In this document: in pieces, positions 40,001 through 59,899 of the stretch
How the letters are laid out: each line of letters starts with the position of its first letter
How positions within the stretch are numbered: the stretch's first letter is position 1
From: Schizochytrium sp. TIO01
Taxonomy: Eukaryota; Protista; Bigyra: Labyrinthulomycetes
Length of the DNA: 64,000 bases
NCBI GenBank assembly: GCA_004764695.1
Contig: SMSO01000033.1
Span: 2,728,001 to 2,792,000, forward strand
Reading direction: 5' to 3'
Notes under the pieces: model-generated
What the model was told of the DNA's origin: nothing
Database searches by the model: none
Seen by the model: the letters and a program-made list of their open reading frames with translations, nothing else
Translations under genes and position numbers: made by a program

Positions 40001-43000
40001 TTAAAAGAGCTCCTGCAATGGTCTTTGACACATACTTTTGTGCTGAAGGGGCGAGATCATCAATATAAAGCCACCATACCTGGTCCAGAACCCAAAATGG
40101 CTCTATTTGTTGTGCTGCAGACACGAGATCCCTGACGCAGGCAACAAAGCTTTTTAAAATTATCCCCGCTTGAGGCTCTAGAGCAACACTCCATGGGGCT
40201 TCGTACCTGCGATCTGATGGACCTGCCTCCTCTTGATTATGCTCTACACTAGATCTCGATGCTGAAGAACCTGAATTTGATGATGAACCTGAAGAAATAC
40301 CAACTCGATGCTGAGTTTTACGCGTTTGGCGTCCAAGAGTTGGAACCTCAACTGGTTCACTATCAAGATAACGCGTCGTAAAACCAGGGTTCATAGGCGA
40401 AAGTGCTTGCTCAGGGTGCTTCTGGAGGTATTCAGATAGCAACCAAGGCCTGAACAGAGTAGCCAGCGAGCCCCATGTACGCACGAGAACTTCTTTGGGC
40501 CAGATAGACTCATCGTATGCACTATTTTGCAGATGTGCACACATCAAAAGCACAAGCTTATGCGTGAGACGAGATATGTGTTCTACCAACTCGAGTTGTG
40601 TCCACTGTTGAACTAATGATCCTGGATTTGTACAAACTGTTAAAGCATTCCCACTGCCGTGCATTCTTAACTGGAAAAAATGGCTTCCAATTACCTCACA
40701 TGCCGTATAGAGGGTCTCCAACGAGAGATTAGAGTTCCAAATTCCAGAGCCAAGCTGTACTAGTACAGCATCCCAAACTTTATTACTTAGTGGAAGATTC
40801 ATTTGCTCCCCACCGCTCGATGGTACATAAATACGTAGATTTTCGGCTCCAGCACGTGAAATTTGCTTTCCGTTTTTAATTGTGCCGCTTGAACCTGTCA
40901 TAGACGAGCTCAAACTAGACTGTTTTCGTTCATCACGATCATCATCGTTTGCAAAGTGCTGCAACTCATCGATATCATCTATTTCTAAAGACTTTGCACC
41001 AATGAGAAGCTGTACCACGTCGATAAAGTGGTCCTCGGGGTCTGCAGCACAGATCTCAAGTAAAAGATCAAGATGAAATTCAAAAATCCTTGCTTCGGCC
41101 GCAACATCTTCGGGCGAGACATATGCTGGTAAGCCATCTCCTTGTAAATCTTGGGATTTCCAACTCTTCTGACGAAGAACGCTTCCAACCATGCAAAGAA
41201 GCTTCACACGCAATTTGCGGCTTGGTTTTAGTGCCAACCAGTCTGAAAACTCAAAATGCTCTAGAACCAAAATCATGTCTCGAGCTGGGATGCGAGGCGC
41301 GGCAGTCCACGCCATTGTATAAAAATCCAGGAGATATTCAACGCGATTTGAAGGTCTGAAAAGAGGACTTAAAAGGTGAATTCGATGTGTATCGTCTAGC
41401 ATCTTGGACAAAATAAGCAAGGTGTCATCCTCGTGATCTCGGGCAAATGCATGGCCCATTTTACTAATCGCGGTCCAAAGAAGTCGTTGCGCGGGCGGGA
41501 AAGAGCGTGTGCCTGGAGTTTCTACATCCAGGAGATCTCGAAACCAAATTAGACCCCGGCGATGCGCCTCCACACTTAATGTTGCGTCTTCCACCAGATT
41601 GGCATGATTACATAACATTTTTACAAGAGCAAAGATGGTAGCCACAAGCCCACAAATATGTTGTTCACGCTCCGAGGCTCCAGCCAGAGCTGTTGCTGAT
41701 GACAACGAATCTGCACTGCTAGTAGATAGCATACGTTCTCGTCCATGGCGTCCCCGGGTTACAAGAGGAGCAGGAGTCCATCCGAAAGACAAGGCCAGCC
41801 AACTTTCCCAGGCCTCCCCGAGCCTGTGGTCAACATCCTGGTCTACAATTGACTCTTCGAATGGAATGTCGAAACGATATGGCTCTTTATCTTTGGTGCT
41901 TGGGCCTTGCTGATAAACGGTTTCCACTCTTGATTGTTGCACATACAAATGGGGAAGTAAATCTTGCACTTCCTTGGCAAGTTCGCGAGCATGAGCAGTT
42001 TGTTCTGCGTACTGGCGCGCATAAAGCTGAAGTTCCTGCAAGAATGATGCGAGATCTGCCTTTCTATAATCGAGATGCTGTGGAAGCACTGGTTCACGGA
42101 AGAGGTAAATCGGGGCAGGGCGGTAATTTCCGAGGGTTTCCGACGCTGAACCGCCTCCAAAAAGGGTACTGCCAGCAGCAGTAGATGAGGTGGCATTGCT
42201 ATTGTGCAACATGTTTGCTCCAGCACGACCAGCGCTACCATGATGGCTTGCCGAGTTGATGGATGAAGCGTGGCGCCTTGCAGCACGACTCGGTGACCAC
42301 GAGCCAATCGAGACTAACATATCTTCACGAAATGGGGCAAGATCGATAATATCAAACCACATCAATGATCTCGCGCTCACGCCTAAATGGGATGAGGGTG
42401 ACTCTCTTATCTGTGATAAGCTAGAAGAAGAAACAGCAGCTGTGGCAGGGCGTAGAGATTCATGTAAGCGCTGTAACAATGGTGACTCCAGAATCGATTG
42501 TAAATGTGATACACAAAATTCGGCTCCAAGACGGGAGACCTGTACCGATTTACCTGGCTGGCCAAGCCAGCTGTGAGGATCTGGGTCTCTTAACCACAAT
42601 GCAAACGCCCCAAAAATTGAAGACATATAGTTGAGTTGTTCTATACCAGGGTTGTGCGAATTGAGACAACTGTCGCCTGTCACGGAGTGATCTCCAACGC
42701 TGGACATTGAGCTAGAGCGACGTCGTGCAACTGAGAACCGACGACGGGATGCTTTCCGGAAGGGTGAGGAACCAAGACCCCCAGCAGATGAAGAAGACGA
42801 GATCGATGTTGTTTTCATCGCAACAGAAGGATGTTGTCGCCGTGCAAGGTCTTTGAAGTGAAGCTGGAGCTCTCGAGCCCTTGTTAGTAATGCCTCGCGA
42901 ACATTGGCACGCCGTGTTTGCTTTCCCGCTCGAGTAAGGAAGCGAATGCCAAAGATTCGCTCATTAGAACCTTTGGAAAAGATTAATTTCAAAGTGATTT

Positions 43001-46000
43001 GCCAGTATAAAAATAGGAGAGGGTGGTCAGGGCTCAACTTGAGTGCGTAGTTAGCCCATCGATAGATTCGAAATTGAGAAAGCTTTTTCAAATCAACATG
43101 GAGAGCATGGTGTGCATTTTTGAATGCACCGTCGCCTTCTTTGGATACGAGCTCAGTTTCCATAGCGGTCCTCAAGCGATCAAGATCAACGTCACAATTT
43201 GTGGCCCGAGAAAGAAATTCACCTGTGCGTTGCCACAAAGGATACTCGCGCGCAGTTTCCACAAGCAAAGCTTCGAAGGAAAGCCAATCTACATGGGATA
43301 CTATTTCAGATACATCAGTACGAGCAAAGAAACCGCTTGCCGGAGGGGCAGGGACGATCGAGAGTGCCGTAGGATCTATATGCTGTTGCTGTTGTTCATC
43401 AAGAGCATTTGTAGCATTGACAAGACTATCTACGACATTCAGCAGCCTACCATCGACTTCAGAGATTAGATCTACGCTACGTAGTTCGGACTGCACGCAC
43501 ATACTGGCCATAACTATACCATCAAGAACAGTTCGACACGAAGCACGTGTTCTCCATTGAGGAATACTCAAAATCTGGTCCATCCAGAAATTTACACAGG
43601 CCCGAGCTATACGTTCTCGTACAGGTATTTGGTTTGGTTCCTCACAAAGAAGCGAGGAACATACGTGCGCTTCAACTAACGAACGAAGTCGCCCGGCTGC
43701 ACTTTGCCCGACACGTGTGATCAGGGTTTCAAATGCTGAGTTGTTACTTGAGGTTGATTGTGCGTGTGATACAATAGAGCTAGGGGATTGGGTGCCATCC
43801 TGCTGCGATTTTGGGCCATGGCCTGCAGCAGGTAGATCAGGCGTCATGACACGCGAAATGAGGTCACCAACAAGGCCAGAGCCCATTGCGACGATACCTG
43901 GCCCAGACTCCATGGCTCGGTCTCTGGCTTCAACTGATTCGAGGAAAGGAAAAAGCCATTGTCCAGGTCCAGGTAAAAGCTGGTACGTGAAAGTCGCCTG
44001 CTCATCAAACAACTCGAATGCATATTGGGGCATGAGATTTTGCAGTGCACAAAGATATGCTCTTTCAACAAGCTGCCAATTTGTAGACACCCCCGGGGAA
44101 GAAAAATGCAATAAAGATTTCAGAGGTACCCATCCGACTTTTTGTACATGATTGGAAGTCTCTAGAATGACAAAGGAAAGAATCGGATGCAGAAATTTAT
44201 GGACAGCCTCTTGTGCTGATGGGCTTGGGGTTGTTGTTTTTGAAGAAGAACTGGAACTATCCAGAGTCTTGGATGAGTCCTCTGCCATACTACGGGCACG
44301 ATGTAAGGCTGTGTTCCAAAGATGATATAGAGTGCCACCTGGGCCAGCGTCTGCTGGGTTGCTTGCATCAAGCAGTGGAATCAAGGGTTCGCCTGACGAA
44401 GATTTGTACATAGATAAAGAAAGGAGTGTAAGCCAACACCAGTGCTCAAATCGTGCCATGTCCTGTGAGTTGGTATAGTCTGTAGTCATTGGGATCCAGC
44501 GACGAAGAGTGGCAAGCGCTCCCGTATGTGTAACACGTTCTAAATGAGGCAAGACAGTTCGAGCCATACAAGCCTCCGCGATAATGAGAGCAATCGATCG
44601 ATGTATCCGCGCGTCAAGATAAAGCTCCCCGTTAGCATCTGCACTATAATCCAGTTCGCTGAGAATAGCCATGGCCATCTCTGTGTAAGCATCTAAAACC
44701 GGGGCAGTCTCTTCTTCGGAGCTAGTTCGGGGCATTAACCAACCACGAATAATATCAATATCGTCAGGCAAGTGAGGGGACCACTGACGAAGGGGCAATG
44801 CTTGAAAAAGCTTTAGGCCGCGTTTTGTAGTTTGTTTTGTCAACTCTTTATCATGCATTGACACAAAATGCAGGACTTCGCTCGTCAACTCGGGATGAGA
44901 TTTGCAAACCGAGGCTAACATATCGCAAATAGGATGCAACAGTTCATCGTGAGCTAACTCACAGTCAGCTTGAGTAAAGGCTGCGGTAGATATCTCAAGA
45001 ATCACAGCTTGCGCAAGATCTTTGCTGCACGCGGACCCAAGCGAAGATAAAGCAACTGCTCGATACAAAGCTTCGCCATGTCGAGGTGTTGCACTTATTT
45101 GAGTTTCCATACGTGCAGTTGCCTCGTCAACCTTTTTCGACCCAGATGCATGAGCGGTAGGAGGCGATGCCAAAAGAGTATCAACATCGGCATCACTAGT
45201 CTGTAGTACTTCATAGAAGCGTTTACGCACAGCGGGATCCGAATCCACAACAACTTTCCATTGTTCATAGCTGCAGATGTACTCATAGCGCTTAAACAGT
45301 TTTGCGGGCTCTGTCAAGTGCGGAGTAGCGGATTTTAATTTGCTAGAAGCACTTGAATGACGCTGTGCAGTCTTGACCGCAGCTTCGCCATCCTTTCCTC
45401 CAGGTACTGTATAAATGGCATCCATATTACAAAGATCAGGCTCGTGATAGCCTAGTATTAAGCCCAAAAAGAGGCGCCACGCAGCTTCGCAAGACAGGCG
45501 CTCTAAAGGTAGGTCTTTAATTGCAAGCCGAAGGTTTTTATTGCTACTAGTCATGACATAGGTGGCAGCGAGAAGGGTCAGACGATCAAAGTGCATCTGT
45601 GCGACAGCCCATGCTTCTGTGACTCCCCAGCACTCCAGGTCACGCAAAAAGTCTCCGGCACGAACGACAAGCCTAACAATTGCGTGAGCAAGCATACGTC
45701 CAAGCTGTGCAAACCACTTGAGACGAGTTGCCGCAGCGCCAAGGGAGAGAACATGTGCGTGAATTCGAGCAAATATTGCTTTAATTTGCTCTGGCATCAG
45801 TGTAGGCGCCATGTCGGAATTTGGGAGGAGATGTTCAAGAGCTAGTTCATAAGGGCATTGCTCTAATAGCGCAATATAATCTGCCTCAGAAAGACGACGA
45901 TCCAGAGGGCCTGCATCATCAACAACTTCGTAACCATCTGCAGTCCCAAAAAGTGGTTCAGCATGATCCAAAAGTGATTGTACCATGGCAAGACAGACCT

Positions 46001-47882
46001 GCACGTCGTCATCAGCCCATTCAAGGTCAGCGAGCTGAGCTGCAGAGGATGTTTGCATATGGATCAATGTCCCATTGCCCATACGATATGAGCTCGGGCC
46101 AGCTTGCAACAAAGGAACTGCCCATGCACCTTCGGGTGAGCCAACCCCAGGAAATGCAATAAGATGTTTGAGCAGAAAGAAGCGATCTTCGAGGCGTCCA
46201 CTCTGAACGAGCGCCGCACCTAAGTGAGCAAGCCAAGCTCTGATGCACCGTAGAAAGCGATTCCTCCAGCGTGATTGGGAAGGTAAAGCTTGTACGCGTT
46301 CGTGTTCAAGCTCCCGACGTGTTCGGAGCTCGAAAGATATGAGCACTGTGAAGTATATACGTGCCAGGTTCTCGGCCCGAGCATGCCGAATTGACGGAGA
46401 TGTATTTTTTGCACGATTTGACGAATCTGTACCACTAACCCCACTCAACTCCCGAGAAGCGTCTAAGCGAGGACAGAAACGTGGAGATAGGGCCAACTCC
46501 TCATAAATTTTCTGTTCTACATTGTAGGCTGTCATGGTCCTGTCAAAACCAAATGTCGTAAGATCCTTTGATCTTAAATCCCCAATGCGGGCCATATCAA
46601 TCTCGAAAGCGCGTGCTTTCTTTCGTGAGAATGCTGCGTGCTGAAAAGACACTGATGCCTTCACTGTGCCTGTGCCAGAACGCGTTTCTTGGGTTTGCTC
46701 TGCACGACCATTCTTGCGTGCCCAGACTTGCCCTCGCTTGAGACGACAATCTTCAATACGCCGCGTAAGTTGGCCTACGAAGTCTTCGTAGGATTCCTCT
46801 GCTGCTCGGAATTTACGAAGCAGTTGGGTGAATTCATCTTCCACGGGCTCAAGGCCTTCTGGAGCATTCAGGTCCAACGCTGCAACCGTGTTGTAGTGAA
46901 GATTGGCAAGCGGTGCCGACTCAGCGTTCGAAAGTATTTTTAGCACTGTATGAGGCGGCAAAACTTGCGTCAAATATCGATTGTCCGCGGTAACATTAAT
47001 GAGTTCCACAGGAGCGGCGGTGACTGTCGTAAAGTCAGGTGATGCATGATGTAACGTTGGAGCGGATGGCGCTGATGGTAGAGTTTCGTCATCAAGAAGG
47101 ATATCAGGTGCTGGCATAGGCAGCGGAACCATCGTTGGGTATAAAGGTGCGCGTGCTTGATGATTGCTAAGCCTTTGCTCCGAGGTCGGTCGAAGGGTGT
47201 GAGCGAGCTGGGCCAAGGCAGTCGTTGCTTCCTTCGCTGACATTTTGTTTGAATGTACAGCGACAGCGTCTTCCGCATTGTCAAAGTCAATTTGTTGCTT
47301 GCTGAGCGTTCTATCTTGGTGCTCAGGAATTTCAGTTCTTTCTACCGTTCCAGTGTCGATTTTAACGCTCCCATCTTGGACAGACCTGTTCAAAGAGGTT
47401 CCCAAGCCGTCATCGGTATCTTCCGCCAGAGGGGATCGAGGGGGTAATGGCGGTGCCGACGGCTGTACCTCCGTTGGTTGATCTCTGTGCTGTGTTTCTA
47501 AGTCAATTTCCAGGACTCCTTCATCGTCATAAAATCTTGAGTTCTGCGCAGAAGATCTCTCTGTTGTGACCATTAACGGTGGTGCACTAGGTTCCCAAAC
47601 TTGTCTATAATCACCGTCATCATCCCTGGGTGGAAGTGCTGGCGCCGAGGGTTCATGATCTGCACCACCTTCGTGAAGTTCGAGCTTTGGCAATAATTTC
47701 GCAAGTTCTTCGGCGTCGGTAAAGGTCTCTTGTTGCTCGTGCGACGGATAGAGCAGGTGTAGCGGCACGGGTTCTATCGACGCCAGGCCTTTTCTCAAGG
47801 CTGTTGTTCCCTCGGCACCATCGCCAGAGGTCACGCCAGAGCCCGAGGCGGGCCCTGCGTCCTGATCGCGAGACAACTCCAT
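37080..47882 (-). CDS. EPG5: Ectopic P-granules autophagy protein 5-like tether, intronless, 3600 aa
   Basis: DEFTQLLRKFR...DCRLKRGQVW and WLAHLGAALVQSG..EDRFFLLKHL..FPG....WAVPLLQ resemble recalled EPG5 N-terminal blocks; likely ATG at 47882 (MELSRD). Confidence 0.8.
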   Translation of the reverse strand: MELSRDQDAGPASGSGVTSGDGAEGTTALRKGLASIEPVPLHLLYPSHEQQETFTDAEELAKLLPKLELHEGGADHEPSAPALPPRDDDGDYRQVWEPSAPPLMVTTERSSAQNSRFYDDEGVLEIDLETQHRDQPTEVQPSAPPLPPRSPLAEDTDDGLGTSLNRSVQDGSVKIDTGTVERTEIPEHQDRTLSKQQIDFDNAEDAVAVHSNKMSAKEATTALAQLAHTLRPTSEQRLSNHQARAPLYPTMVPLPMPAPDILLDDETLPSAPSAPTLHHASPDFTTVTAAPVELINVTADNRYLTQVLPPHTVLKILSNAESAPLANLHYNTVAALDLNAPEGLEPVEDEFTQLLRKFRAAEESYEDFVGQLTRRIEDCRLKRGQVWARKNGRAEQTQETRSGTGTVKASVSFQHAAFSRKKARAFEIDMARIGDLRSKDLTTFGFDRTMTAYNVEQKIYEELALSPRFCPRLDASRELSGVSGTDSSNRAKNTSPSIRHARAENLARIYFTVLISFELRTRRELEHERVQALPSQSRWRNRFLRCIRAWLAHLGAALVQSGRLEDRFFLLKHLIAFPGVGSPEGAWAVPLLQAGPSSYRMGNGTLIHMQTSSAAQLADLEWADDDVQVCLAMVQSLLDHAEPLFGTADGYEVVDDAGPLDRRLSEADYIALLEQCPYELALEHLLPNSDMAPTLMPEQIKAIFARIHAHVLSLGAAATRLKWFAQLGRMLAHAIVRLVVRAGDFLRDLECWGVTEAWAVAQMHFDRLTLLAATYVMTSSNKNLRLAIKDLPLERLSCEAAWRLFLGLILGYHEPDLCNMDAIYTVPGGKDGEAAVKTAQRHSSASSKLKSATPHLTEPAKLFKRYEYICSYEQWKVVVDSDPAVRKRFYEVLQTSDADVDTLLASPPTAHASGSKKVDEATARMETQISATPRHGEALYRAVALSSLGSACSKDLAQAVILEISTAAFTQADCELAHDELLHPICDMLASVCKSHPELTSEVLHFVSMHDKELTKQTTKRGLKLFQALPLRQWSPHLPDDIDIIRGWLMPRTSSEEETAPVLDAYTEMAMAILSELDYSADANGELYLDARIHRSIALIIAEACMARTVLPHLERVTHTGALATLRRWIPMTTDYTNSQDMARFEHWCWLTLLSLSMYKSSSGEPLIPLLDASNPADAGPGGTLYHLWNTALHRARSMAEDSSKTLDSSSSSSKTTTPSPSAQEAVHKFLHPILSFVILETSNHVQKVGWVPLKSLLHFSSPGVSTNWQLVERAYLCALQNLMPQYAFELFDEQATFTYQLLPGPGQWLFPFLESVEARDRAMESGPGIVAMGSGLVGDLISRVMTPDLPAAGHGPKSQQDGTQSPSSIVSHAQSTSSNNSAFETLITRVGQSAAGRLRSLVEAHVCSSLLCEEPNQIPVRERIARACVNFWMDQILSIPQWRTRASCRTVLDGIVMASMCVQSELRSVDLISEVDGRLLNVVDSLVNATNALDEQQQQHIDPTALSIVPAPPASGFFARTDVSEIVSHVDWLSFEALLVETAREYPLWQRTGEFLSRATNCDVDLDRLRTAMETELVSKEGDGAFKNAHHALHVDLKKLSQFRIYRWANYALKLSPDHPLLFLYWQITLKLIFSKGSNERIFGIRFLTRAGKQTRRANVREALLTRARELQLHFKDLARRQHPSVAMKTTSISSSSSAGGLGSSPFRKASRRRFSVARRRSSSMSSVGDHSVTGDSCLNSHNPGIEQLNYMSSIFGAFALWLRDPDPHSWLGQPGKSVQVSRLGAEFCVSHLQSILESPLLQRLHESLRPATAAVSSSSLSQIRESPSSHLGVSARSLMWFDIIDLAPFREDMLVSIGSWSPSRAARRHASSINSASHHGSAGRAGANMLHNSNATSSTAAGSTLFGGGSASETLGNYRPAPIYLFREPVLPQHLDYRKADLASFLQELQLYARQYAEQTAHARELAKEVQDLLPHLYVQQSRVETVYQQGPSTKDKEPYRFDIPFEESIVDQDVDHRLGEAWESWLALSFGWTPAPLVTRGRHGRERMLSTSSADSLSSATALAGASEREQHICGLVATIFALVKMLCNHANLVEDATLSVEAHRRGLIWFRDLLDVETPGTRSFPPAQRLLWTAISKMGHAFARDHEDDTLLILSKMLDDTHRIHLLSPLFRPSNRVEYLLDFYTMAWTAAPRIPARDMILVLEHFEFSDWLALKPSRKLRVKLLCMVGSVLRQKSWKSQDLQGDGLPAYVSPEDVAAEARIFEFHLDLLLEICAADPEDHFIDVVQLLIGAKSLEIDDIDELQHFANDDDRDERKQSSLSSSMTGSSGTIKNGKQISRAGAENLRIYVPSSGGEQMNLPLSNKVWDAVLVQLGSGIWNSNLSLETLYTACEVIGSHFFQLRMHGSGNALTVCTNPGSLVQQWTQLELVEHISRLTHKLVLLMCAHLQNSAYDESIWPKEVLVRTWGSLATLFRPWLLSEYLQKHPEQALSPMNPGFTTRYLDSEPVEVPTLGRQTRKTQHRVGISSGSSSNSGSSASRSSVEHNQEEAGPSDRRYEAPWSVALEPQAGIILKSFVACVRDLVSAAQQIEPFWVLDQVWWLYIDDLAPSAQKYVSKTIAGALLKLPWETWSLCDSILAEFVRLVETYEATDATFHMVRHLLEHLNWTLTETHQRRSSATLTGEAHLGEMILRHDADSQASNSDFYAQVLRLLLTILMKEKMPVPKDFTQFFFEIAHSLPWTYVSPIHYRDTVLHFEVMLNDMPKSTKAREATEAKSQGIGLDSVEKKSVAAIRLLGAATMLGAFDMRRLNTNGEVDFFNALQRERCLLGLLENQLQLTCQSGSGRTNTNGESSDVGVGEGLSSSSSSSDSSDTGACLRKLGSESAKLPFSSGALVMLFFESMQRLHRLVNDRNAPWAQVGSHVKGVREIAAGAASERVLAEMQATLVGLLSLLNVPGVVCVRLDASRSQLQGGDVGVANAVFGKVENVLRSISENLPPALQFHEGGETLEHLNNLQTSRNGSGQSIAGSPSAQASSRAISNEEPSSSSRVAVPSTDGPTRGLAYLQWAHWKIMWRSVLPCMIAAARLERPFDRVASVVPLEPTTGSPEGSFKAAGLVMRRLSRRGVSSTGSQPANWGQVTGFTNKDCASLDITSLQKEGHFSVTGVGVGTLLHTMIRHNPPCAPLYISAALKAVTSSARFVELMEAALDSWFTESNDLAPVLASLGTRKGYQRVLCSEDIILRYEACAIRRGAWLSWYAFEMYALSSGLSSGAEVMARLAHAMTQAVHTETTSPGSFLHPSPVKILPLMWLLLDLVVRDFPDDAVVNDAAFKVQQLHVSMTALQSLVLDKGNMISALASAVFRSLPSLPFGGYGSSSPQTIIGGAETTSVAATAGTTTMSSNSQGLVGTSEEGGRSSSVGSGGESRAGRDTATEHAHDSAANFSGSSPSSAQFSPVRLNPQSYQPCDSLVKEEELRIFVRSLQVLIYLNSHRRSGTLRLRERDGVLNAESRKAQQALQALTQTFAGSSVARWSSRFCSDSTHTLASYPTLLEELISSLFPHVTYLQRGVHEWETRLHEAVKEIDSDIALTGGTVSL

Positions 47883-47947
47883 CGCCGCGCACGGCTCCCT
47901 GGAACGGGCTCGCGTTTGAAATCTGATTTCTGACTCGATGATTCCTT

Positions 47948-47978
<31 letters not shown>

Positions 47979-48609
47979 CGCAAAGAGCACTTCATTCGTT
48001 CGTTTGCCTGTTTTCGCCCCAATACTCTACTGTAGAGCTCCCTTTAGCCCACTGTATATCCCGCCCTGTACTATAGCCTATTTCTATCCGTCGACTGTAA
48101 GTGCCCGGAATAGTCAGTTTCCGGGTCTCTCAAGCGCGAGAGTTTTCCCCTTTCTTTTCTACCTGTGGAGGCTGGCTGTAAACCCATAGTACTGCTACAG
48201 CCTCAGCCGCGGAGAAGCCTCAGGGAGGCCAGCTCGCAGAAGCAGGAACAAGGCAGGTCGCACAGCGAGCTGGCGGCCAATGCCCTCGATCTCCAGCCCA
48301 TCAGCCAGGCACCTCAGAACTTACCAAAGGCGGAAGCGAACGACTTTCTCGAGAGCAGGCGCTCCATCCCAAGTCTCCGGCGCTAGGGCCGGCTAGGGTT
48401 TAGGGTAGCAGTGGAGGGGGTTAAAGGGCTCAGGAAGAGACACCGTAGAGAACAGAACAGAGGGAGAACGACTGCGGGCAAGGGGGGCGTTCTGATGGTG
48501 TTCCGGGAGGGAGGAGAACGGTCGCAAGAGACCCCGCGTGAAGGTTCGCAAAAAATGAAGAAAGGTTGGTCAAAGGAGGGGCAGTGTACAGGAGATATTA
48601 GCGGTGGGT

Positions 48610-49670
48610 AAACAGCGGGTGCCAACGTGAGGAGTGGCGGCTTGTGCATATGCAAGGAGCCACTATTGAATGATTGCGAGGTGCCTTCTACCGCATTGCC
48701 AGCGGCATCGGCTTCATTGTGGGAAGGAAGTCTGTGCACCCTGGCTGCAGGTTGGAGAGAATGACTGCGTAATGGATCATGGACAAGGAATTGGGGAAAC
48801 TTAGCAAGAGTAATGCGGAGCTTCTCAAGAGGTGGCGTTGGGGTTCAAGTTGTTTGCGCTAGATCTTTGGGATTTTGTCAAGTATTCTCGTAGAAACGAT
48901 CCTGGTGCTGTACTTGGGAAACCAATTCTGGCATCAAAAGGAGGAAAGCTCCAGGCTTGAATAAAAGGCGTTGAACTAAGGTATCGAGCTCATTACAGGG
49001 CGCATGGGGATGGGAAGTCCAAATAGTTTGGTGACACCTTGTAGGGTATGTGCTTAACGAGAGTGTATAAAAACTCTGATTCCCAGGTACAGCATGTTAC
49101 CAAAGCCATGATGAAGTCTTTGGGATTTACTATACGTTTAGAGCCATGAAAAGGGTAGCTGCGAAGTCCAGCTTCAAGTTTATTTGAGTATACGTTTAGA
49201 GCCATGAAAAGGGTAGCTGCGAAGTCCAGCTTCAGGTTATTTGAGTATAAGTTTAGAGCCATAAAAAAAAAGGGTAGCCAGCTTCAGTAGATCCCTGTTA
49301 CCACTTGACCTGGGTTGGCCACTGCGAAACTATTTTGCAAAGTCCAATACTCGGTTCTGAGGTACCAATGAGTTGAAACCAGGATCGGCAGCCAGTGTGC
49401 GGATGGTGGTTGCGGCCTTCTGTTTTTTACTAAGCCCATAGGCCTATATCACCAAGCCACTTGCAGCAGGACCATTTGCGTACCTCTCGATGAGGCATGG
49501 GAACTTGAAGGTGTTAAGAGATATTCCTGCATTTGTCATCATCGAGAGCTACCTTTTATTGTATAAACACATTCCCTGAAGTTAAGCATCTCTAAGGGAA
49601 GGTCCAGAAACGTCCGTAGTTGACTATTTTAAAAGTGTCCACGACAAACTTGCAGGTGCGCACGATGTGT
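48610..49670 (+). mobile_element. CRE-like relic (GGLG motif through Zn knuckle and REL)
   Basis: VRSGGLCI (48627), GAFY, RHRLHC...APWL (48703), RW/LGFKLF, FGDTL*GMC, MKSLGFTIRLEP (49111), KPGSAA, CVPL.EAW. Confidence 0.6.
49131..49287. repeat. 58-bp tandem repeat, ~2.7 copies
   Basis: tatacgtttagagccatgaaaagggtagctgcgaagtccagcttca.. twice, plus an internally deleted third copy. Confidence 0.9.
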
Positions 49671-50758: not shown

Positions 50759-53700
50759 ATGTCGGATAACCCGATTGTTGTAGAGGCTCTTCAAGAGCTT
50801 GCTAAAGGGGCAGCCAATCTCAAGTAAGTAAAGCAACAGAATGAAAGTTTGGTGCTGGACGATTTATTAACATGACAACGATGCTAGCCTGTCTCATGGA
50901 CGTATCAATGCTGAGGACTGCAAGACGCTTGCCTTAGCACTTGCCGATAATACTACATTGACATTGCTCAAGTAAGTCGCTGTGATTTTGTTTTTTTGAG
51001 CAGCTTACTGCGTTGTTTTCGAACTCTTTCTGTGAAAGGTATTCTAACTTTGAGTGTTGTTTCTCATCATGTTTTAGTCTGTACGTCAACGAGGTTGGTC
51101 CCGAAGGCGCAGCGGCGTTGGCAGAAGCACTGGAAACGAACAGTGCTCTCACGACTCTGAAGTAAGTTCTACTTTGTTGCTCTAAGACTGTTCCGAATCT
51201 CTAACGCATCGAGAATTGTCGTGTTTCTTAATAGCCTTTACAAAAACAAGGTTGGTGATGCTGGAGTTGAGGCTCTTGCAGAGGCTCTCAAGGTGAATAC
51301 GTCGTTGGCAGTTTTGAAGTAAGTGCAAATTGATGGCAGCGGTTGGTTGTCTTAAGACATCTCAGGTTTCAAAGTAGGAAAACTAACAAGCTCATCGCGT
51401 TACAAACAGCCTATATGGTAACAAAATCTCTGCCACGAGTATGGAAGCCCTTGCCAATGGGCTGCGGGTGAACACGTCTTTGCAGAAGCTCGAGTAGGTT
51501 GCCTTGAAATTTTGCATTGCTCAGACTATTAGATTGACTCACGTTATTTGCATGTATTCTTAGACTTCGGGGAAATCAACTTGGCGATGAAGGTGTCGCA
51601 ATTCTATCAGATTTTCTGAGGGTAAACGCCTCGCTGAAGGATCTAAAGTAAGTTTCGAACATTAAGTTGTTTGCTGCTGCAATCCTTAGTGATGCTGAAT
51701 TAAGTGACTGACTTTTTATTGATGATTTATGCAACAGCCTTGCAGACAACAGCCTCGGGGACGAAGGTATGCAGCCTCTTGCAGACGCGTTGATGGAGAA
51801 CACATCGTTAACGAATCTCAAGTAAGTTTCCCTGTTTGTTTTTGGTATTTTGAGACGATATCTAACATGAAAATAAATCTCCTTTCCTTAATGTTTCGTT
51901 ACTGTTTGTTTCCTGCAGTTTATACGGCAATGACATTCAGTCAGAGGGAATTGTGATGCTGTCTGAGGCAATCAAGGTCAACACTACGTTACAATGGCTG
52001 GGGTAAGTCGATAAAGCTGTTTGTTTTCAAGATGGCTGGTCAACAAATGTCCTCAAATAGTTCACTAACTTCTATACCTACCATGTGGTGTCACAATAAA
52101 ACAGACTCACGCGCAACGATATTGGGGCAGATGGCGCTGTAGCTCTTGCTGAGGCTTTAAAGGAGAACTCCTCCTTGACTTGGCTTAGGTAAGTTTCACT
52201 AGACTCATTCACTCATCTAACCATTGCAAAGTGGTGGTTGGAATAAGAGAGAGGATGCACGCTGACGTGAATATAACGTGATAACTTGTTCTGTAAACAG
52301 TCTCTACAGCAACGATATCGGCACTAGAGGTGCTTTAAGCCTCGCAGCGGTCCTTAAAACGGACAATCGGTCGTTGACTTCGCTGAAGTAAGTGATTCAT
52401 TTAGCAGGATCAGAAGACAGCCGACTGACAACGTAATACAATGCTATGGACGGTATTCTACTTTTATTCAATTGCAGTCTCTTCAATAACCGAATCGGAG
52501 AAGAAGGCGGGGAGGCATTCCTAGATGCACTGCAAGAGAACACATCGTTGCTCGAGCTTGAGTAAGTTTTGCGAGATTCGAGTATATTGCAGGGCGATTC
52601 AGTGCATGGGAGAGCTAATGTTGTTATATGAAATGGTAATATCCATGTTGGCATGCAAACAGCCTCGGAGATAACAAGATTGACCCGGTCGACGGTGCTC
52701 AGATCAAGGCCTTTCTTCAGCAAAATAATGAACGCCAATTGCCTGAAGACAATCAATCTGAAAAGTGGCTAGCAGCTGTGCGCAAGGCAATCGAAAACAA
52801 CGATGAGCATGCATGGGGTAGAGTGAAACTCATGGTTGTAGGGCAAGGAGCAGCAGGGAAAACTTCTACGGTAAGATCTCTTCTGGGCCTACCCTTTGAC
52901 ACGGCGCACGCATCAACAGAGGTTGCAGATCTACATCGTACTCGAGCAAAGGACTTTGCGGAACTTCCTGATGACGTAGGGGAATTCGACATGCAGGTTC
53001 GTAAGGCAGCGATGCGGCGCCTTCGTCCCTTGGCACAACCAAAGCATAAGAGTTTACGGAGGAGAGTTATTAACTCGATGCAGCGCTCTCTTAGCCGCGC
53101 AACCTCTTCATTCTCCTTACTCGCTGCAACGTCAAACTCGTCCCTTCCTACTGTTGAAGCTATCTCCTCAACGCCAATGTTGTCAGAGGAAGAGACCGCG
53201 AGGCGGTTTGAACTAACCAGTGAGGATCAGGAGTTTCTTCAAAGCTCTTATACCTCAAATGCAAAGCTAGACTTCGATGTGAGTTTTACAATCTGGGATT
53301 ATGGTGGGCAGGAAGTTTTTTATGCCCTGCATCATATTTTCCTGACAGATAATGGCCTATACCTGGTGGTCTTTGACATGGCTGAACTTAAATCTCCAGA
53401 TGGTCAGGGAGAGGCAATCCAAACTCTGAAGTTTTGGTTAAAGAGCATTAGGCTTCATGCGCCCTATGCACCAATTGCTCTCATTGGTACACACTTGGAT
53501 CAAATTGATAAGGCGGACTTGAGTGTTATCAGCAGTATCATTCGCAATAAGGTTCAAATCGTAGAATACCCGCAGTGCATGACTGGCCCAAAAGGTAGAC
53601 CCTTTTTTCCAATCAACAACAGCGCACCAGATAAGGACCAAATTGCAGAGTTGAGAAAGAGGATTGTCAATGTGGCGCTTGACCAGGTCTATGTTCGAGA

Positions 53701-55186
53701 GCAGGTCCCACTTGCTTGGCTCAAAATTTATGAAGATTTGATGCAGTGCAAAAAGCAGTATGTGCTTTCTTCTGACGTGGCGTACATTGCATGGCAATAC
53801 GGGCAAAAGCCAGGACAAGTGTCCGAGATGTTGCGTTACTTTCATGAAGCTGGGGTAGTTGTATACCTGGAGGCGTCTGAAGAACTTCAACATATAGTGG
53901 TAATTGACCCGCAGTGGCTGCTTGATAAACTAGCCCGCGTTATTGCTGATGACGCTCATGTTGAGTCAATTTACGAGACTGGTGAGCTTGTGGAAGCCGG
54001 GCTAGAGGCAGAATTCGTTGAGATGCGTCGAAAGGCGATCGCAACCCGCAGATTATTAGAATTTCTCTGGAATGATGAGGAGGTAGACTACCTCATTGCT
54101 TTTATGCGTGAAAACATGCTTTTGAGTACCTGGGATTTTAACCCCAAAGAGACCTCATATCTCATTTCAGGCTTGATTTCTGATATGATGGAGCCCATCG
54201 ATACAAGCAGGTTCACGGCAGGATGTGTTTGTGAGCTTGACTTTTCTTCAACATTTTTGCCAACTGGGGTCTTTCAACGCCTTGTAGCTCAATGCGCGCA
54301 TTACTCAACCAGACCTGAAGTCCGAGGCGATTGGCCTCTCACCACTCCTAAGGTTGGACGAGATAGTGCCAGAATGGCATTCGGTCAAAACAACTTTGTT
54401 ATTGAAGTTATAGACAATAGGATTCGATTTCGCATCCACGAAAGAGCTATGGCGCCAGCTATGGTAATAAAGTTTCTTGTTTCCATGTTTCGTCAACAGC
54501 AGCAGTCTTTCTTTAGGAAGCTTTCCTGGGACCTTTATCTTTGCAGCACAAAAGGGGACTGGGCTTTGTATAGTAAGATTGAAGGAGATCGTCAATCAAA
54601 CCAGAAATATTCTGAAAGCGTCGATGGCGTCTTTGTTGATTTGAGCGATTATGAAAGCTTCTTTGACGAGAAGGTTGGACGCCTCGACACTGATGAGGAC
54701 GGCCTAGTGGTACCTCATTATGATATCCCACCTTTGATTGCTAATGAAAAGACTCACCTTTTTTTGAGCCATATAGAAAAGACCGGGGGGAGTATTGCAG
54801 AGGCTCTGGAGGAAAAACTTTCAAGACGTGGCCTGAAGGTGTGGCTTTCACAAAAATTTCAAGGGAATCTCAATCGTGCGTCTATGGTCCGGGGTGTGAA
54901 AGAGACACACACATTTGTGTTAATTCTCACGAAGGATGTCTTCTCAAGTGCCGCTGTCTGTGATGAACTTCAGACTGCAATTACTGAAGAAAAGAACATT
55001 GTGCTTGTACACGAGAGTGAGACACATCGAGAAGGATACTTTCCGATAGTAGAGTACAAACCGTTGTTGCCATCGTTCTGTCGCACTCTCTTGGACGATG
55101 TCAACTCCATACCCATTCGTCGTAGATACTATGAAGAGGAGGCGTTTCTGAAAGAGCTCATTCGTCGTTGCATCCAGCCGTATTGA
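50759..55186 (+). CDS. LRR-Roc-COR-TIR (Roco) protein, 12 exons, 1143 aa predicted
   Basis: Exons 50759-50823, 50888-50971, 51078-51161, 51235-51318, 51410-51493, 51564-51647, 51738-51821, 51919-52002, 52105-52188, 52301-52387, 52478-52561, 52663-55186; all GT-AG phase-2 introns; RI-like LRRs; Roc GQGAAGKTS / WDYGGQ / GTHLD; COR VIDPQWL, FLPTGVFQRL; TIR LFLSH...LKVWL...FVLILT...VCDEL. Confidence 0.92.
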
Positions 55187-55565
55187 CCCAACTGAGATAT
55201 CTTCTAACAAACATCATCTTAATATTGTTTTTCAATTCATGATTCCAGACCTTTCGGCGTGTAGGAGTTGCACGATGATTATAAAACAGAGCAGTGAGAG
55301 CTAGATTTGTTCAACCCTTGAGCGTCTCTTGATTTCACATTCAATTTTATGCCCTGAACAAGTAAGCATTTAAAGTCGATGCAATTCCAGTATAATGTAT
55401 TTTACTGAATAGTTTTTTTATTATTTTTTGTCAAGGTGAGACGATAGGTATATGAGTATTGCTACATAAAGGTTTATATTATCAAGTCCGAGTCTGCAAG
55501 ATTCAATGCAAAATGAAATACGATCATTGATGCAACAAGAAACATACGGACACATAATGCTAGTT

Positions 55566-56879
55566 TTATTGCTCGTCATCGTCAGAGGGCTGCAACGAAG
55601 TGGGGAGACTTTTGATGTCCTTGACGTAAAATGGTTCGCGGTTCTTCTGGGGGAAAGATTTGAGCGCCTTGTTGATGCCAGCTTCGTCTTCACCATACTT
55701 GTACAGGTACCAGAAACTAATAAAGGGTGAGGTGCGAACACCGAGCGTAGAACAGTGATTCTGGAGACGGTCTTTGGAACGCAATCCCTTAGGAGTCCAG
55801 TAGTTGTAGCGTTTCTTCGGCACGAGGAACCCGTCGTGAGCTTTCTCATCATAATATGATTTTCCAGCGACATACTTTGGCATCAGCATAAGAGCCGGCT
55901 TGCCGTTCTTTTGAGCAAACTCAAGCAACTTTTCGACATGGTCAAAAGAGTAGGGTGGGTTAGTGACAATAACATCATGCTCAGGTGTTGGAGTGTTATA
56001 AAAGTCCTCGCATCGATTGTAAACGTTATGGAAGCCAAGAGCTGCAAGGTTGCGTACCACGGCTCCAGCGCAGTAGTATGGATCGTAGATGCTAAGTTCG
56101 GCGTCGGTTTTGCCAAGGCGCTTTGCTAGAGCACGGAGAAGTGGTGCGACATCTGCATAAGCCTCTGGTGCAGTTTCACAATGGTCGTCAGCAACAGTGT
56201 GGAATGGATGTTCAATCTTCTCAAAGTTGGCCATACATGCTTTCTTGTCAACTTCGACCAATTGATTACGCTGTTTCTTGGGAATCGTTTTCCAGCCCTT
56301 CTTTAAGGCTGACCAGTAGAATTTGTGAGAAGGGTTGAGCCAGTCTGAGAGCGTGCCCTTGCGTTTCTTTTCATCAAGGGCCCTTGCTACTTGGCCAGCA
56401 AGGCCATCTGCTGCAAGCAAATCCTCTTCGAGATCACCTTCCTTGGTACGCTGGCGTTTGTTGGCATTTTTACCTTTACCAGGGTTCTTCCCGGCATTCT
56501 TATCTGTAGGTTTGTCTGTCTCTCCTTCGTCTGAGTTGATTTTGCTGTCGTCATCAGCGCCGTCCTTATCTCCATCATCATCGTCTTTGGCAGGCTCAAC
56601 AGCATCCTTGCTGGTGTTGTTACTGGGTTTGGCCCGACCTTTGGCACCACGCTTGCGCTTTTTGCGATTGAGTCTGCGTCTCTCGCCCAGATTCAAGCCA
56701 GTTTTGTCATCTTCATCGCTATCATTCTTGGCGTCGTTGATGTCATTCTCTGCTACATCCTTGTTGTCACCCTCGGAGTTCTTCAACGCTTCAGAGTTCG
56801 TCTTGAGGGCTTCGCCCTCCATGCTCTTGGTATCGTCCATTTTCGGTTCGTCGGCGCCTGCGTGCTCTACAGCGCCCAT
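55566..56879 (-). CDS. N6-adenine (amino) methyltransferase-like protein with charged, NLS-rich N-terminus
   Basis: SAM-binding-like IYDPYYCAG and catalytic-type VIVTNPPYS, preceded by DDHCETAPEAY; basic stretch RRRLNRKKRKR; 437 aa. Confidence 0.8.
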   Translation of the reverse strand: MGAVEHAGADEPKMDDTKSMEGEALKTNSEALKNSEGDNKDVAENDINDAKNDSDEDDKTGLNLGERRRLNRKKRKRGAKGRAKPSNNTSKDAVEPAKDDDDGDKDGADDDSKINSDEGETDKPTDKNAGKNPGKGKNANKRQRTKEGDLEEDLLAADGLAGQVARALDEKKRKGTLSDWLNPSHKFYWSALKKGWKTIPKKQRNQLVEVDKKACMANFEKIEHPFHTVADDHCETAPEAYADVAPLLRALAKRLGKTDAELSIYDPYYCAGAVVRNLAALGFHNVYNRCEDFYNTPTPEHDVIVTNPPYSFDHVEKLLEFAQKNGKPALMLMPKYVAGKSYYDEKAHDGFLVPKKRYNYWTPKGLRSKDRLQNHCSTLGVRTSPFISFWYLYKYGEDEAGINKALKSFPQKNREPFYVKDIKSLPTSLQPSDDDEQ

Positions 56880-57109
56880 ACTCAGCCACTTGCTGTTGTC
56901 TGCAAGTGATGATCTGTCTCAACTTGAGCTAGGGGAGCTCGAAGAGACGGACCTTGCTCCAGCAGAACTCCAAACTCCGCACGGGTGGTGGTCCTCGCAC
57001 CACCAAGCAGTGAGTGGTAGGTAGCAAGCAAGACTTCACTATGAAGGATGATGGTAGAACTAGCTTAGTTGGTGTTAACCTTTTCTCTTCTGCTGTATGA
57101 CTAGGTTAC

Positions 57110-59093: not shown

Positions 59094-59708
59094 CTATTTA
59101 TCACTGGTTGTGGTTGCTTTCGAGTAGACATGAACCTCCTCTGAGCTCTGGATTCTACGCCACGCCTCTGGAAGTGTAAAGACATTGCTAAAAATAAGTA
59201 CATCGTCCTTGCACTCATCCATCAGCTTAACACTTAGGCGATCCATAATCGGCGATAAGCCATAAACAAGAATAATATCTGCATTGCTTAAATTCACCTT
59301 CCATAAATCCCTGCATTTAAACTCCACCGAGGCTGTTTCTGGCCAAGGCTTGCGGTTCTTTAAAACCCGATGGGCGAGGTGCTGGTCCCAAAAAGCCCAT
59401 GTGTGAGACACAGCAACAAGCATTGGGTTTAGCTCATAACCAACTGCACGGTATCCGTGTCTTGCTGCTTCAATGACTACACGCCCATCACCTGAGCCCA
59501 GATCAACCATAATAGGTGTGGCTTTCCCTGCCTCCACTGGTTTGAGCTTAGGCAGCACCTTGCCAAATACTACATCAAGAGATTTCCTTAGAGTTGGCAT
59601 GTATGGTGCTCCTTTACCTGCAACAGCTGGCAGTGCTGACATGAACAAAGTAAAGTTGACAGCAAGAGCTGCACCGATTGCAGCGCCTATTGCGCCTCCA
59701 AGACCCAT
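59094..59708 (-). CDS. FAM173 (ATPSCKMT/ANTKMT)-type protein lysine methyltransferase
   Basis: N-terminal TM segment, then APYMPT, VDLGSGDGRVV, GYELNP, DLWKVNLS, SNVF; ATG at 59708. Confidence 0.85.
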   Translation of the reverse strand: MGLGGAIGAAIGAALAVNFTLFMSALPAVAGKGAPYMPTLRKSLDVVFGKVLPKLKPVEAGKATPIMVDLGSGDGRVVIEAARHGYRAVGYELNPMLVAVSHTWAFWDQHLAHRVLKNRKPWPETASVEFKCRDLWKVNLSNADIILVYGLSPIMDRLSVKLMDECKDDVLIFSNVFTLPEAWRRIQSSEEVHVYSKATTTSDK

Positions 59709-59899
59709 GATGTTAAAAATTAGAGTCAACCCCTACCTTCGTGATAGCCAAATTGCTGTTTCTCTTGCTTAGCGTATTTTGCGTCAACCTCTATTTTGGT
59801 TGACGAGCTGAGTTTGCGCTGCTGTTGAGCTTTAGCTCACGAGTCCACGACAGTGATTGTGAATTGAACGACTCTGCCCAGCAGTGAGATTGAAGTCTC

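What the first reader, a model, noticed from the sequence alone, without database searches (positions are those of the whole stretch)
52739..55186. Roco GTPase with a C-terminal TIR effector in place of a kinase: candidate NLR-like immune receptor
Seen: intact Roc motifs (GQGAAGKTS, DYGGQ, THLD), a COR region, then a TIR fold (HLFLSH, GLKVWL, FVLILTKDVFSS, VCDELQTA). Knowledge: enzymatic TIRs (SARM1, plant and bacterial TIRs) use a Glu at this alphaC position and are activated by oligomerisation, and Roc-COR modules dimerise in a nucleotide-dependent way. Inference: LRR sensing drives a Roc-COR switch that triggers TIR NAD+ cleavage or signalling. The Roc domain also carries a ~75-aa basic/Ser-rich insertion between G2 and G3 that could be regulatory.
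Basis: partly seen in the sequence, partly recalled or inferred. Interest (0 to 1): 0.78.

Follow-up and report, generated by a model that had tools for sequence, protein, structure and literature searches.

The report
Protist Roco GTPase with TIR output
A spliced gene of a marine protist joins eleven leucine-rich repeats, an LRRK2-type GTPase switch and a SARM1-like TIR domain, a likely immune-receptor design already described in bacteria and a few eukaryotes; the family is much expanded in a related protist, but this copy's TIR has changed conserved residues, is cut off by a frameshift in one lineage, and may be decaying.

Summary
All 11 introns are spliced in public contigs. The TIR model matches SARM1 best (Z 19.3, 1.8 A), and its Glu aligns with the catalytic Glu. 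The G2-G3 insertion is about 100 aa and family-wide. Relatives: 33 of 74 hits are Hondaea proteins, 27 of them with TIR, carrying LRR or WD40 fronts.

The architecture is not new: it is described in bacteria, Aplysia and Chondrus. The thraustochytrid expansion was not found in print.

Verdict: new member of a known, largely untested receptor kind. The family is probably catalytic; this paralogue is possibly decaying. Interest 0.45.

The parts
50759..55186 (+). Whole gene: 12 exons, 1,143 aa, LRR(11)-Roc-COR-TIR
   Evidence: Exon model gives one open frame; all 11 GT..AG joints in runs X4, X5 and X9, 10 of 11 in X1 and X13; in-frame stop upstream of ATG 50759
50759..50823 (+). Exon 1 (65 nt): start and N-cap
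50888..52561 (+). Exons 2-11 (50888-50971, 51078-51161, 51235-51318, 51410-51493, 51564-51647, 51738-51821, 51919-52002, 52105-52188, 52301-52387, 52478-52561): one 28/29-aa ribonuclease-inhibitor-type LRR each, all phase 2
   Evidence: splicing; weak Pfam LRR_6 hits (below cut-off) on 6 of these 10 exons scanned singly; the nine 84-nt exons are 50% alike on average at DNA level, at most 61%
52663..55186 (+).
52817..53683 (+). Roc GTPase domain, G1 52841-52867, G2 Thr 52916-52918, G3 53297-53311, G4 53489-53500; motifs match the family
   Evidence: boundaries from structural alignments
52949..53254 (+). About 100-aa insertion between G2 and G3: conserved helical flanks, variable basic then Ser-rich middle with low model confidence; family-wide
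53708..54679 (+). COR region (Pfam COR-A 53708-54112; the rest aligns structurally with the COR of CtRoco/LRRK1)
54545..54555 (+). 11 nt missing in 5 of 8 laid runs (one SNP haplotype); frameshift, stop after aa 935, TIR lost
   Evidence: (table 4)
54749..55174 (+). SARM1-like TIR domain (TIR_2)
54848..54850 (+). Ser1032 where related TIRs have Asp (176 of 190); position matches the VFID Asp of TIR-1/SARM1 (D594)
54965..54967 (+). Glu1071, predicted catalytic residue on helix alphaC; Glu in 181 of 190 related TIRs

Best explanation
This spliced gene encodes an LRR-Roc-COR-TIR protein that likely belongs to an expanded thraustochytrid family of cytoplasmic immune-type receptors, in which a front module (LRR or WD40) is predicted to hold the protein off until a cue arrives, GTP loading of Roc would open the COR-held resting state, and freed SARM1-like TIR domains would self-associate and cleave NAD+; this copy is probably a weakened or decaying paralogue. 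Shown here: gene structure, splicing, domain order, folds, intact GTPase motifs, catalytic Glu, family expansion and module swapping, loss of a conserved TIR Asp, and a TIR-removing allele. Inferred: sensing by the LRRs, GTP-driven opening (by analogy with CtRoco and LRRK2), TIR assembly, NAD+ cleavage, and any role in defence. My odds: family acts in defence or cell-death signalling about 0.6; typical family TIR is an enzyme about 0.6; this copy's TIR is an active enzyme about 0.3.
For: Architecture and folds. Splicing. Expansion: 33 of 74 hits are named Hondaea fermentalgiana proteins, 27 of the 33 with Roc and TIR_2, 7 with WD40 fronts; one more has two Roc-COR-TIR sets. In the Roc-COR tree (92 rows) the window groups with LRR-type Hondaea proteins (support 0.99); the WD40 proteins fall in a separate Hondaea clade of 19 (1.0), and a second LRR clade of 7 stands apart (1.0). 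Other outputs and fronts occur in relatives: SAM, kinase-PH, N-terminal TIR. Across 25 family rows the TIR evolves no faster than Roc-COR (total branch ratio 0.98), and Glu is kept in 181 of 190 related TIR stretches. The family profile places that Glu on WVHKE of TIR-1 and WTNYE of AbTIR; SARM1 E642 sits in WVHKE (primer sequences). Published parallels: predicted bacterial LRR-AP-GTPase-COR-effector systems with TIR among 24 or more effectors; Glu-dependent cADPR from protist TIRs; TIR genes induced in virus-resistant Gephyrocapsa. Decay of this copy: 11 of 52 conserved TIR columns broken versus 16 of 134 in Roc-COR; 3 of 5 marker positions changed, seen in only 6 of 152 complete rows, one being its own allele; frameshift allele.
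Against: No activity, ligand or infection data exist for any member. In an E. coli screen only 25 of 154 Glu-bearing TIRs (4 of 29 from unicellular eukaryotes) gave a detectable product. LRR exons show 4 synonymous changes and 1 changed codon between strains and no recent exon homogenisation (one search hid 15 rows), unlike brown-algal ROCO LRRs. Against decay: the terminal branch ratio TIR/Roc-COR is only 1.17; three runs from two studies, the window and P0001 keep the frame; one of the three marker changes (Asn1117) may match SARM1's own Asn (inferred from the primer-encoded NGIKWSH); N/S counts between alleles are not significant (Fisher p 0.40). The organism's own family size could not be counted (no genome).
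Confidence: 0.55

Rival explanations
1. Scaffold or decoy: the TIR of this copy (perhaps of the family) works by protein-protein assembly, like MyD88/TLR TIRs, without meaningful NAD+ cleavage. The TIR-less allele would be a plain LRR-Roc-COR protein that may damp paralogues through COR pairing.
For: Asp-to-Ser at the D594-like position, where SARM1 D594A reduces NADase; 129 of 154 Glu-bearing TIRs gave no product, and the authors note Glu-bearing TLR2 and IL-1R TIRs that are inactive; the frameshifted transcript is fully spliced in five studies, and its stop lies in the last exon.
Against: Glu and the pocket residues Ser and Asp are held across the clade (166, 176 and 181 of 190); the best structural match is the enzyme SARM1, ahead of MyD88 and IL-18R TIRs (Z 19.3 vs 16.1).
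Confidence: 0.25
2. Non-immune signalling: a Roco GTPase used in membrane traffic, cytoskeleton, development or general stress, as Dictyostelium Rocos are, with TIR-made cADPR as a calcium-type messenger.
For: Transcribed in runs from five studies whose conditions are not given; LRRs are not diversifying; brown-algal ROCOs respond to non-immune stress, and Dictyostelium ROCOs act in chemotaxis and cytoskeleton; basic insert could bind membranes (inference).
Against: Lineage-specific expansion, swapping of sensor-type fronts and effector-type ends, and a loss-of-function allele fit conflict genes better than housekeeping signalling; neighbours give no clue either way.
Confidence: 0.15
3. One reading: COR-mediated dimerisation itself brings two TIRs together and is the active state.
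For: Roco proteins dimerise through COR-B, just upstream of the TIR, and active LRRK2 was seen in a dimer of dimers; TIR activity depends on self-association.
Against: In CtRoco the dimer is the nucleotide-free state and GTP gives the active monomer; LRRK2 dimers hold an inactive kinase.
Confidence: 0.2

Closest known systems
Prokaryotic AP-GTPase (Roc)-COR counter-invader proteins, Kaur, Iyer, Burroughs, Aravind 2021 (PMC8195603; section 15 read)
   Same: LRR front, Roc-COR core, variable C-terminal effector including TIR; several paralogues per genome; predicted defence role, untested. Bacterial Roc-COR-TIR clusters also appear in the ESM Atlas.
   Different: Eukaryotic, spliced, RI-type 28-aa LRRs, 100-aa G2-G3 insert; no close relative found in prokaryote genomes or viral contigs by pattern scan.
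Brown-algal LRR-ROC-COR genes, Teng et al. 2024 (PMC11378527; abstract, part 1 of Results, exon section and part 1 of Discussion read)
   Same: Stramenopile Rocos with one LRR per phase-2 exon, ROC insertions, family expansion, proposed immune receptors.
   Different: Brown-algal exons are 72 nt, shuffled and under positive selection, and the proteins have no TIR; here exons are 84 nt, RI-type, divergent from each other, and followed by a TIR. That paper reports four or fewer ROCOs in unicellular SAR species (naming Schizochytrium aggregatum), while Hondaea gives 33 hits here.
Chondrus crispus TPR-ROCO-TIR and Aplysia ROC-COR plus TIR proteins (PMC9334734; passages)
   Same: Eukaryotic Roco fused to TIR, proposed immune role, untested.
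   Different: Other front modules or metazoan TIR contexts; not shown to be orthologous.
SARM1 / C. elegans TIR-1 TIR NADase
   Same: Best structural match (Z 19.3, rmsd 1.8); Glu position matches.
   Different: No ARM or SAM domains; lacks the SARM1-specific loop insertion; Asp matching D594 is Ser in this copy; activity untested.
LRRK1/LRRK2 and Chlorobaculum tepidum Roco
   Same: LRR-Roc-COR core, structural Z 22-29.
   Different: No kinase; TIR sits after COR; database names such as 'LRRK1/2' or 'serine/threonine kinase' on the Hondaea relatives are misannotations for proteins with no kinase domain.
NLRs (STAND NB-ARC/NACHT receptors), plant TNLs
   Same: Sensor-switch-effector logic; RI-type LRRs; the same TIR clade is also fused to NB-ARC in two relatives (P0103, P0144).
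   Different: Switch is a Ras-like GTPase, not a STAND ATPase; effector is C-terminal.

Membership tests
Roco proteins | Roc GTPase domain with G1-G4 motifs | tested here: met
   Pfam Roc 65.2 bits vs cut-off 27; motifs match family
Roco proteins | COR domain directly after Roc | tested here: met
   Pfam COR-A 46.4 bits vs cut-off 35.3; structural alignment through COR of CtRoco and LRRK1
Roco proteins | GTP binding and hydrolysis; nucleotide-dependent monomer-dimer cycle | not testable with these tools
   Needs biochemistry
LRRK1/LRRK2-type Roco kinases | Kinase domain after COR | tested here: not met
   No kinase match; TIR_2 occupies the C-terminus up to the stop
Catalytic TIR NADases (SARM1/AbTIR type) | TIR fold | tested here: met
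Catalytic TIR NADases (SARM1/AbTIR type) | Glu on helix alphaC at the catalytic position | tested here: met
   Profile alignment to TIR-1 and AbTIR, SARM1 E642 context; side-chain orientation in the model not measured
Catalytic TIR NADases (SARM1/AbTIR type) | Supporting Asp at the end of betaB (SARM1 D594); supportive rather than strictly defining | tested here: not met
   Ser in this protein and its allele P0001; Asp in 176 of 190 relatives
Catalytic TIR NADases (SARM1/AbTIR type) | Glu-dependent NAD+ cleavage on self-association | not testable with these tools
   Needs assay
NLR (STAND) receptors | NB-ARC or NACHT ATPase switch | tested here: not met
   Switch is Roc-COR; it works like an NLR at most by analogy
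Brown-algal exon-shuffling ROCOs (groups 1-2) | One LRR per phase-2 exon | tested here: met
   Ten phase-2 exons with one LRR each
Brown-algal exon-shuffling ROCOs (groups 1-2) | 72-nt exons, 24-aa LRR class | tested here: not met
   84/87-nt exons, 28/29-aa repeats vs 72 nt
Brown-algal exon-shuffling ROCOs (groups 1-2) | Exon shuffling, alternative splicing, diversifying selection | tested here: inconclusive
   One weak exon-10 skip (depth 2.16, 23-nt side); few, mostly synonymous, changes; paralogues of the same genome not available
Chlamydomonas-type 3'cADPR TIR clade (bioRxiv 2026.04.20.719644) | Groups with the C. reinhardtii TIR on the tree (clade said to include thraustochytrids) | tested here: inconclusive
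   Reference sequence not obtained; supplements closed; one unnamed relative has Glu at 264 but carries no name

The most novel reading that the evidence does not exclude
Thraustochytrids run a large NLR-equivalent immune repertoire on a Roco GTPase chassis: dozens of paralogues per genome swap LRR or WD40 sensors onto one Roc-COR-TIR core, GTP loading switches on a SARM1-like or 3'cADPR-making TIR, and paralogues are born and lost quickly, with TIR-less alleles like the one seen here acting as natural nulls or dampers.
Probability: 0.35. Interest if true: 0.75.

Novelty: new member of a known kind. Interest (0 to 1): 0.45.

Why it matters
I found no report of a full-length Roc-COR-TIR protein tested for function in the papers read. 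Such a protein offers a simple enzymatic read-out (NAD+ loss or cADPR) of the Roc-COR switch, whose direction is still debated for LRRK2. The family also points to a candidate antiviral system in a single-celled stramenopile group, and contradicts the published statement that unicellular SAR species hold four or fewer ROCOs. This particular copy is a poor first choice for the assay, but its natural intact and TIR-less alleles give a ready comparison.

Tried and rejected
Own-genome family count: no genome is held, so the count rests on Hondaea. Pattern scans with alignment A1 found no relative in viral contigs (0 of 39 candidate stretches) or prokaryote genomes (0 of 50); these need conserved words and do not exclude distant bacterial Rocos. 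The metagenome scan gave 9 loci from 596 stretches; 2 of 9 (L002, L007, identical exons) show 84-nt LRR exons. No run is on record as RNA; splicing is read from the joints. Single-sequence search of the TIR against PDB gave only weak hits (best E 0.17); the profile and fold searches were needed. PADLOC gave generic TIR matches only (best E 4e-06, TIR-SAVED). A TIR-only search of longer proteins found 2 of 307 candidates. A complex prediction of four TIR copies was not run, so self-association is untested. Rejected: the 11-nt gap as a micro-intron (too short, no GT..AG, travels with 11 other private substitutions); caveat: every run with the gap is spliced and every run without it is unspliced, and no separate genomic run of that lineage was laid. 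Rejected: the insertion as a feature special to this gene (family-wide). Rejected as unsupported: relaxed selection from allele counts (p 0.40). P0177 as the C. reinhardtii TIR could not be confirmed (unnamed). Literature searches without a hit: Roco+TIR+Labyrinthul, 'ROC-COR-TIR', Roco+Hondaea; thraustochytrid+TIR domain gave one preprint. The library lacks most subscription papers; the preprint's supplementary tables and figures, which list tested TIRs and architectures, could not be seen and may include a member of this family.
Full report
Observation. Pfam finds Roc, COR-A and TIR_2 above their cut-offs and no kinase. An AlphaFold2 model from a 42-row alignment (pLDDT 83) matches LRRK1, LRRK2 and CtRoco over Roc-COR and SARM1 over the last 142 residues. 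The TIR folded alone (pLDDT 94) has human SARM1 TIR as its best match among 48,161 chains (Z 19.3, rmsd 1.8, 131 aligned), then C. elegans TIR-1.

The gene is larger than the finding. The window is eukaryotic; the nearest named relatives are from the thraustochytrid Hondaea fermentalgiana (44-48% identity), so a thraustochytrid origin is inferred. Upstream lie ten exons of 84 or 87 nt, each one 28/29-aa ribonuclease-inhibitor-type LRR in phase 2, and a 65-nt first exon. Joined, they give 1,143 aa with 11 LRRs. I laid 8 of the 22 runs listed. All 11 predicted GT..AG joints appear in X4, X5 and X9, and 10 of 11 in X1 and X13; X15, X17 and X19 are unspliced. One weak contig in X1 skips exon 10 in frame (depth 2.16, 23-nt side). 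Two of nine metagenome loci, probably one organism, also have 84-nt LRR exons before a Roc domain.

The insertion. Relative to LRRK2 Roc it adds about 99 aa between G2 and G3. All 37 alignable rows have it (92-263 aa from G2 Thr to G3 Asp). Its flanks are conserved and modelled as helices; the middle is basic, then Ser-rich, variable and low in confidence. It is a family trait, and ROC insertions are also reported in brown algae. A regulatory role is possible but has no evidence here.

The family. Of 74 hits, 42 carry TIR_2, and 33 are named Hondaea proteins, 27 of them with Roc and TIR_2 and 7 with WD40 fronts (some are partial models, so this is a count of 90% clusters, not of verified genes). 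A further Hondaea protein has two Roc-COR-TIR sets. In a FastTree tree of 92 Roc-COR stretches (six near-identical Logan rows, P0056-P0061, dropped; midpoint-rooted), the window joins LRR-type Hondaea proteins (0.99), the WD40 proteins sit in a separate Hondaea clade of 19 (1.0), and a second LRR clade of 7 is distinct (1.0) (front-end labels set by hand). Other relatives carry SAM, kinase-PH or an N-terminal TIR. The TIR clade is wider: 488 representatives at E up to 0.001. Of 59 that I scanned, many are Roc-COR-TIR and others fuse the TIR to NB-ARC, SLOG, TLDc, EF-hand or kinase domains.

Is the TIR an enzyme? For the family, probably. Glu is kept in 181 of 190 TIR stretches, the betaB Asp in 176 and the betaA Ser in 166. 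The family profile puts the Glu on WVHKE of TIR-1 and WTNYE of AbTIR, and the Asp on VFID and VWYD. In SARM1, E642 lies in WVHKE and D594 in VFID, and both mutants reduce NADase (PMC8266388, passages and primer table). Across 25 rows the TIR evolves at the rate of Roc-COR (0.98). A Glu is not sufficient, though: 25 of 154 Glu-bearing TIRs, 4 of 29 from unicellular eukaryotes, gave a product in E. coli (bioRxiv 10.64898/2026.04.20.719644, sections 6, 8, 9, 10 read). That preprint lists Roc and COR among the domains of proteins whose TIRs made cADPR, without naming the protein in the text I could read, and places thraustochytrid TIRs in the clade of a 3'cADPR-making algal TIR. I could not test whether this TIR is in that clade.

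This copy looks weakened. It has Ser for the betaB Asp (5 of 152 complete rows lack Asp, one being its own allele P0001) and differs at 3 of 5 marker positions, as only 6 of 152 rows do. It breaks 11 of 52 conserved TIR columns but 16 of 134 Roc-COR columns. Five of the eight laid runs, from five studies and sharing one set of substitutions, lack 11 nt at 54545. This ends the protein at aa 935, after most of COR, and removes the TIR. These five are all the spliced runs, so expression is shown only for the TIR-less allele; the three intact runs come from two studies and are unspliced. The shared haplotype suggests one lineage, so the allele's natural frequency is unknown. Against decay: the terminal TIR branch is only 1.17 times the Roc-COR branch, allele N/S counts are not significant (p 0.40), and one marker change may match SARM1's own residue. 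The LRR exons give no sign of an arms race: 4 synonymous changes and 1 changed codon among strains (15 rows hidden), and the nine 84-nt exons are at most 61% alike.

Mechanism. The best reading is a sensor-switch-effector receptor. LRRs or WD40 would both sense and restrain; in LRRK2 the LRR blocks the kinase until released, and CtRoco is a dimer without nucleotide and an active monomer with GTP (PMC11052575, abstract and introduction). By analogy GTP loading would open the resting dimer and free the TIRs to self-associate and cleave NAD+. Every step after the anatomy is inferred. Rivals are a scaffold or decoy TIR, non-immune Roco signalling, and activation by dimerisation.

Comparison and novelty. 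The design is in print: bacterial LRR-AP-GTPase-COR proteins with TIR among at least 24 effectors (PMC8195603), Chondrus TPR-ROCO-TIR and brown-algal one-LRR-per-exon ROCOs (PMC11378527), and Aplysia ROC-COR-TIR proteins (PMC9334734). The Atlas holds bacterial Roc-COR-TIR clusters, and this scan already has 56 notes with the words Roco and TIR in at least 43 genomes (unchecked AI notes). What I did not find in print is the thraustochytrid expansion with 84-nt LRR exons and LRR/WD40 swapping, which exceeds the four or fewer ROCOs reported for unicellular SAR species. It is a Roco by test, not an LRRK kinase and not an NLR; it is a TIR with the catalytic Glu whose activity is untested.

Verdict: real, well supported anatomy; new member of a known but largely untested kind; interest 0.45.

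Noticed in passing
window 37080-48026 (-): Intronless 3,648-aa open frame with no Pfam or NCBIfam match; from recall it resembles the autophagy protein EPG5, not tested.
   Followed up: partly
window 49119-49267: About 2.5 tandem copies of a 58-nt unit in the intergenic DNA upstream of the gene.
   Followed up: no
window 55566-56918 (-): Convergent 450-aa frame with DPYY..G and NPPY motifs, suggesting an N6-adenine methyltransferase (motif reading from recall); no Pfam or NCBIfam match.
   Followed up: partly
window 59094-59732 (-): Small protein-lysine methyltransferase-like frame (NCBIfam NF041081 E 2e-06, far below cut-off).
   Followed up: partly
window 55127-55153 and 55413-55434: A second contig in runs X15 and X17 matches these two short pieces 3.1 kb apart; could be the tail of a paralogue or chance.
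   Followed up: no
P0076 (Hondaea GBG34516.1): One 1,621-aa model with two Roc-COR-TIR sets; tandem fusion or merged gene model.
   Followed up: partly
P0110, P0103, P0144, P0177, P0185, P0148: The same TIR clade is fused to SLOG, NB-ARC, TLDc and ADP-ribosyltransferase domains in unnamed proteins.
   Followed up: no
P0073: Relative with WD40, Roc-COR, EF-hand and PF00656 (caspase-like, label recalled) matches: another effector on the same chassis.
   Followed up: no
L002:308-527 and L007:1696-1915: Two 84-nt phase-2 LRR exons upstream of Roc in metagenome contigs, identical in both loci.
   Followed up: partly
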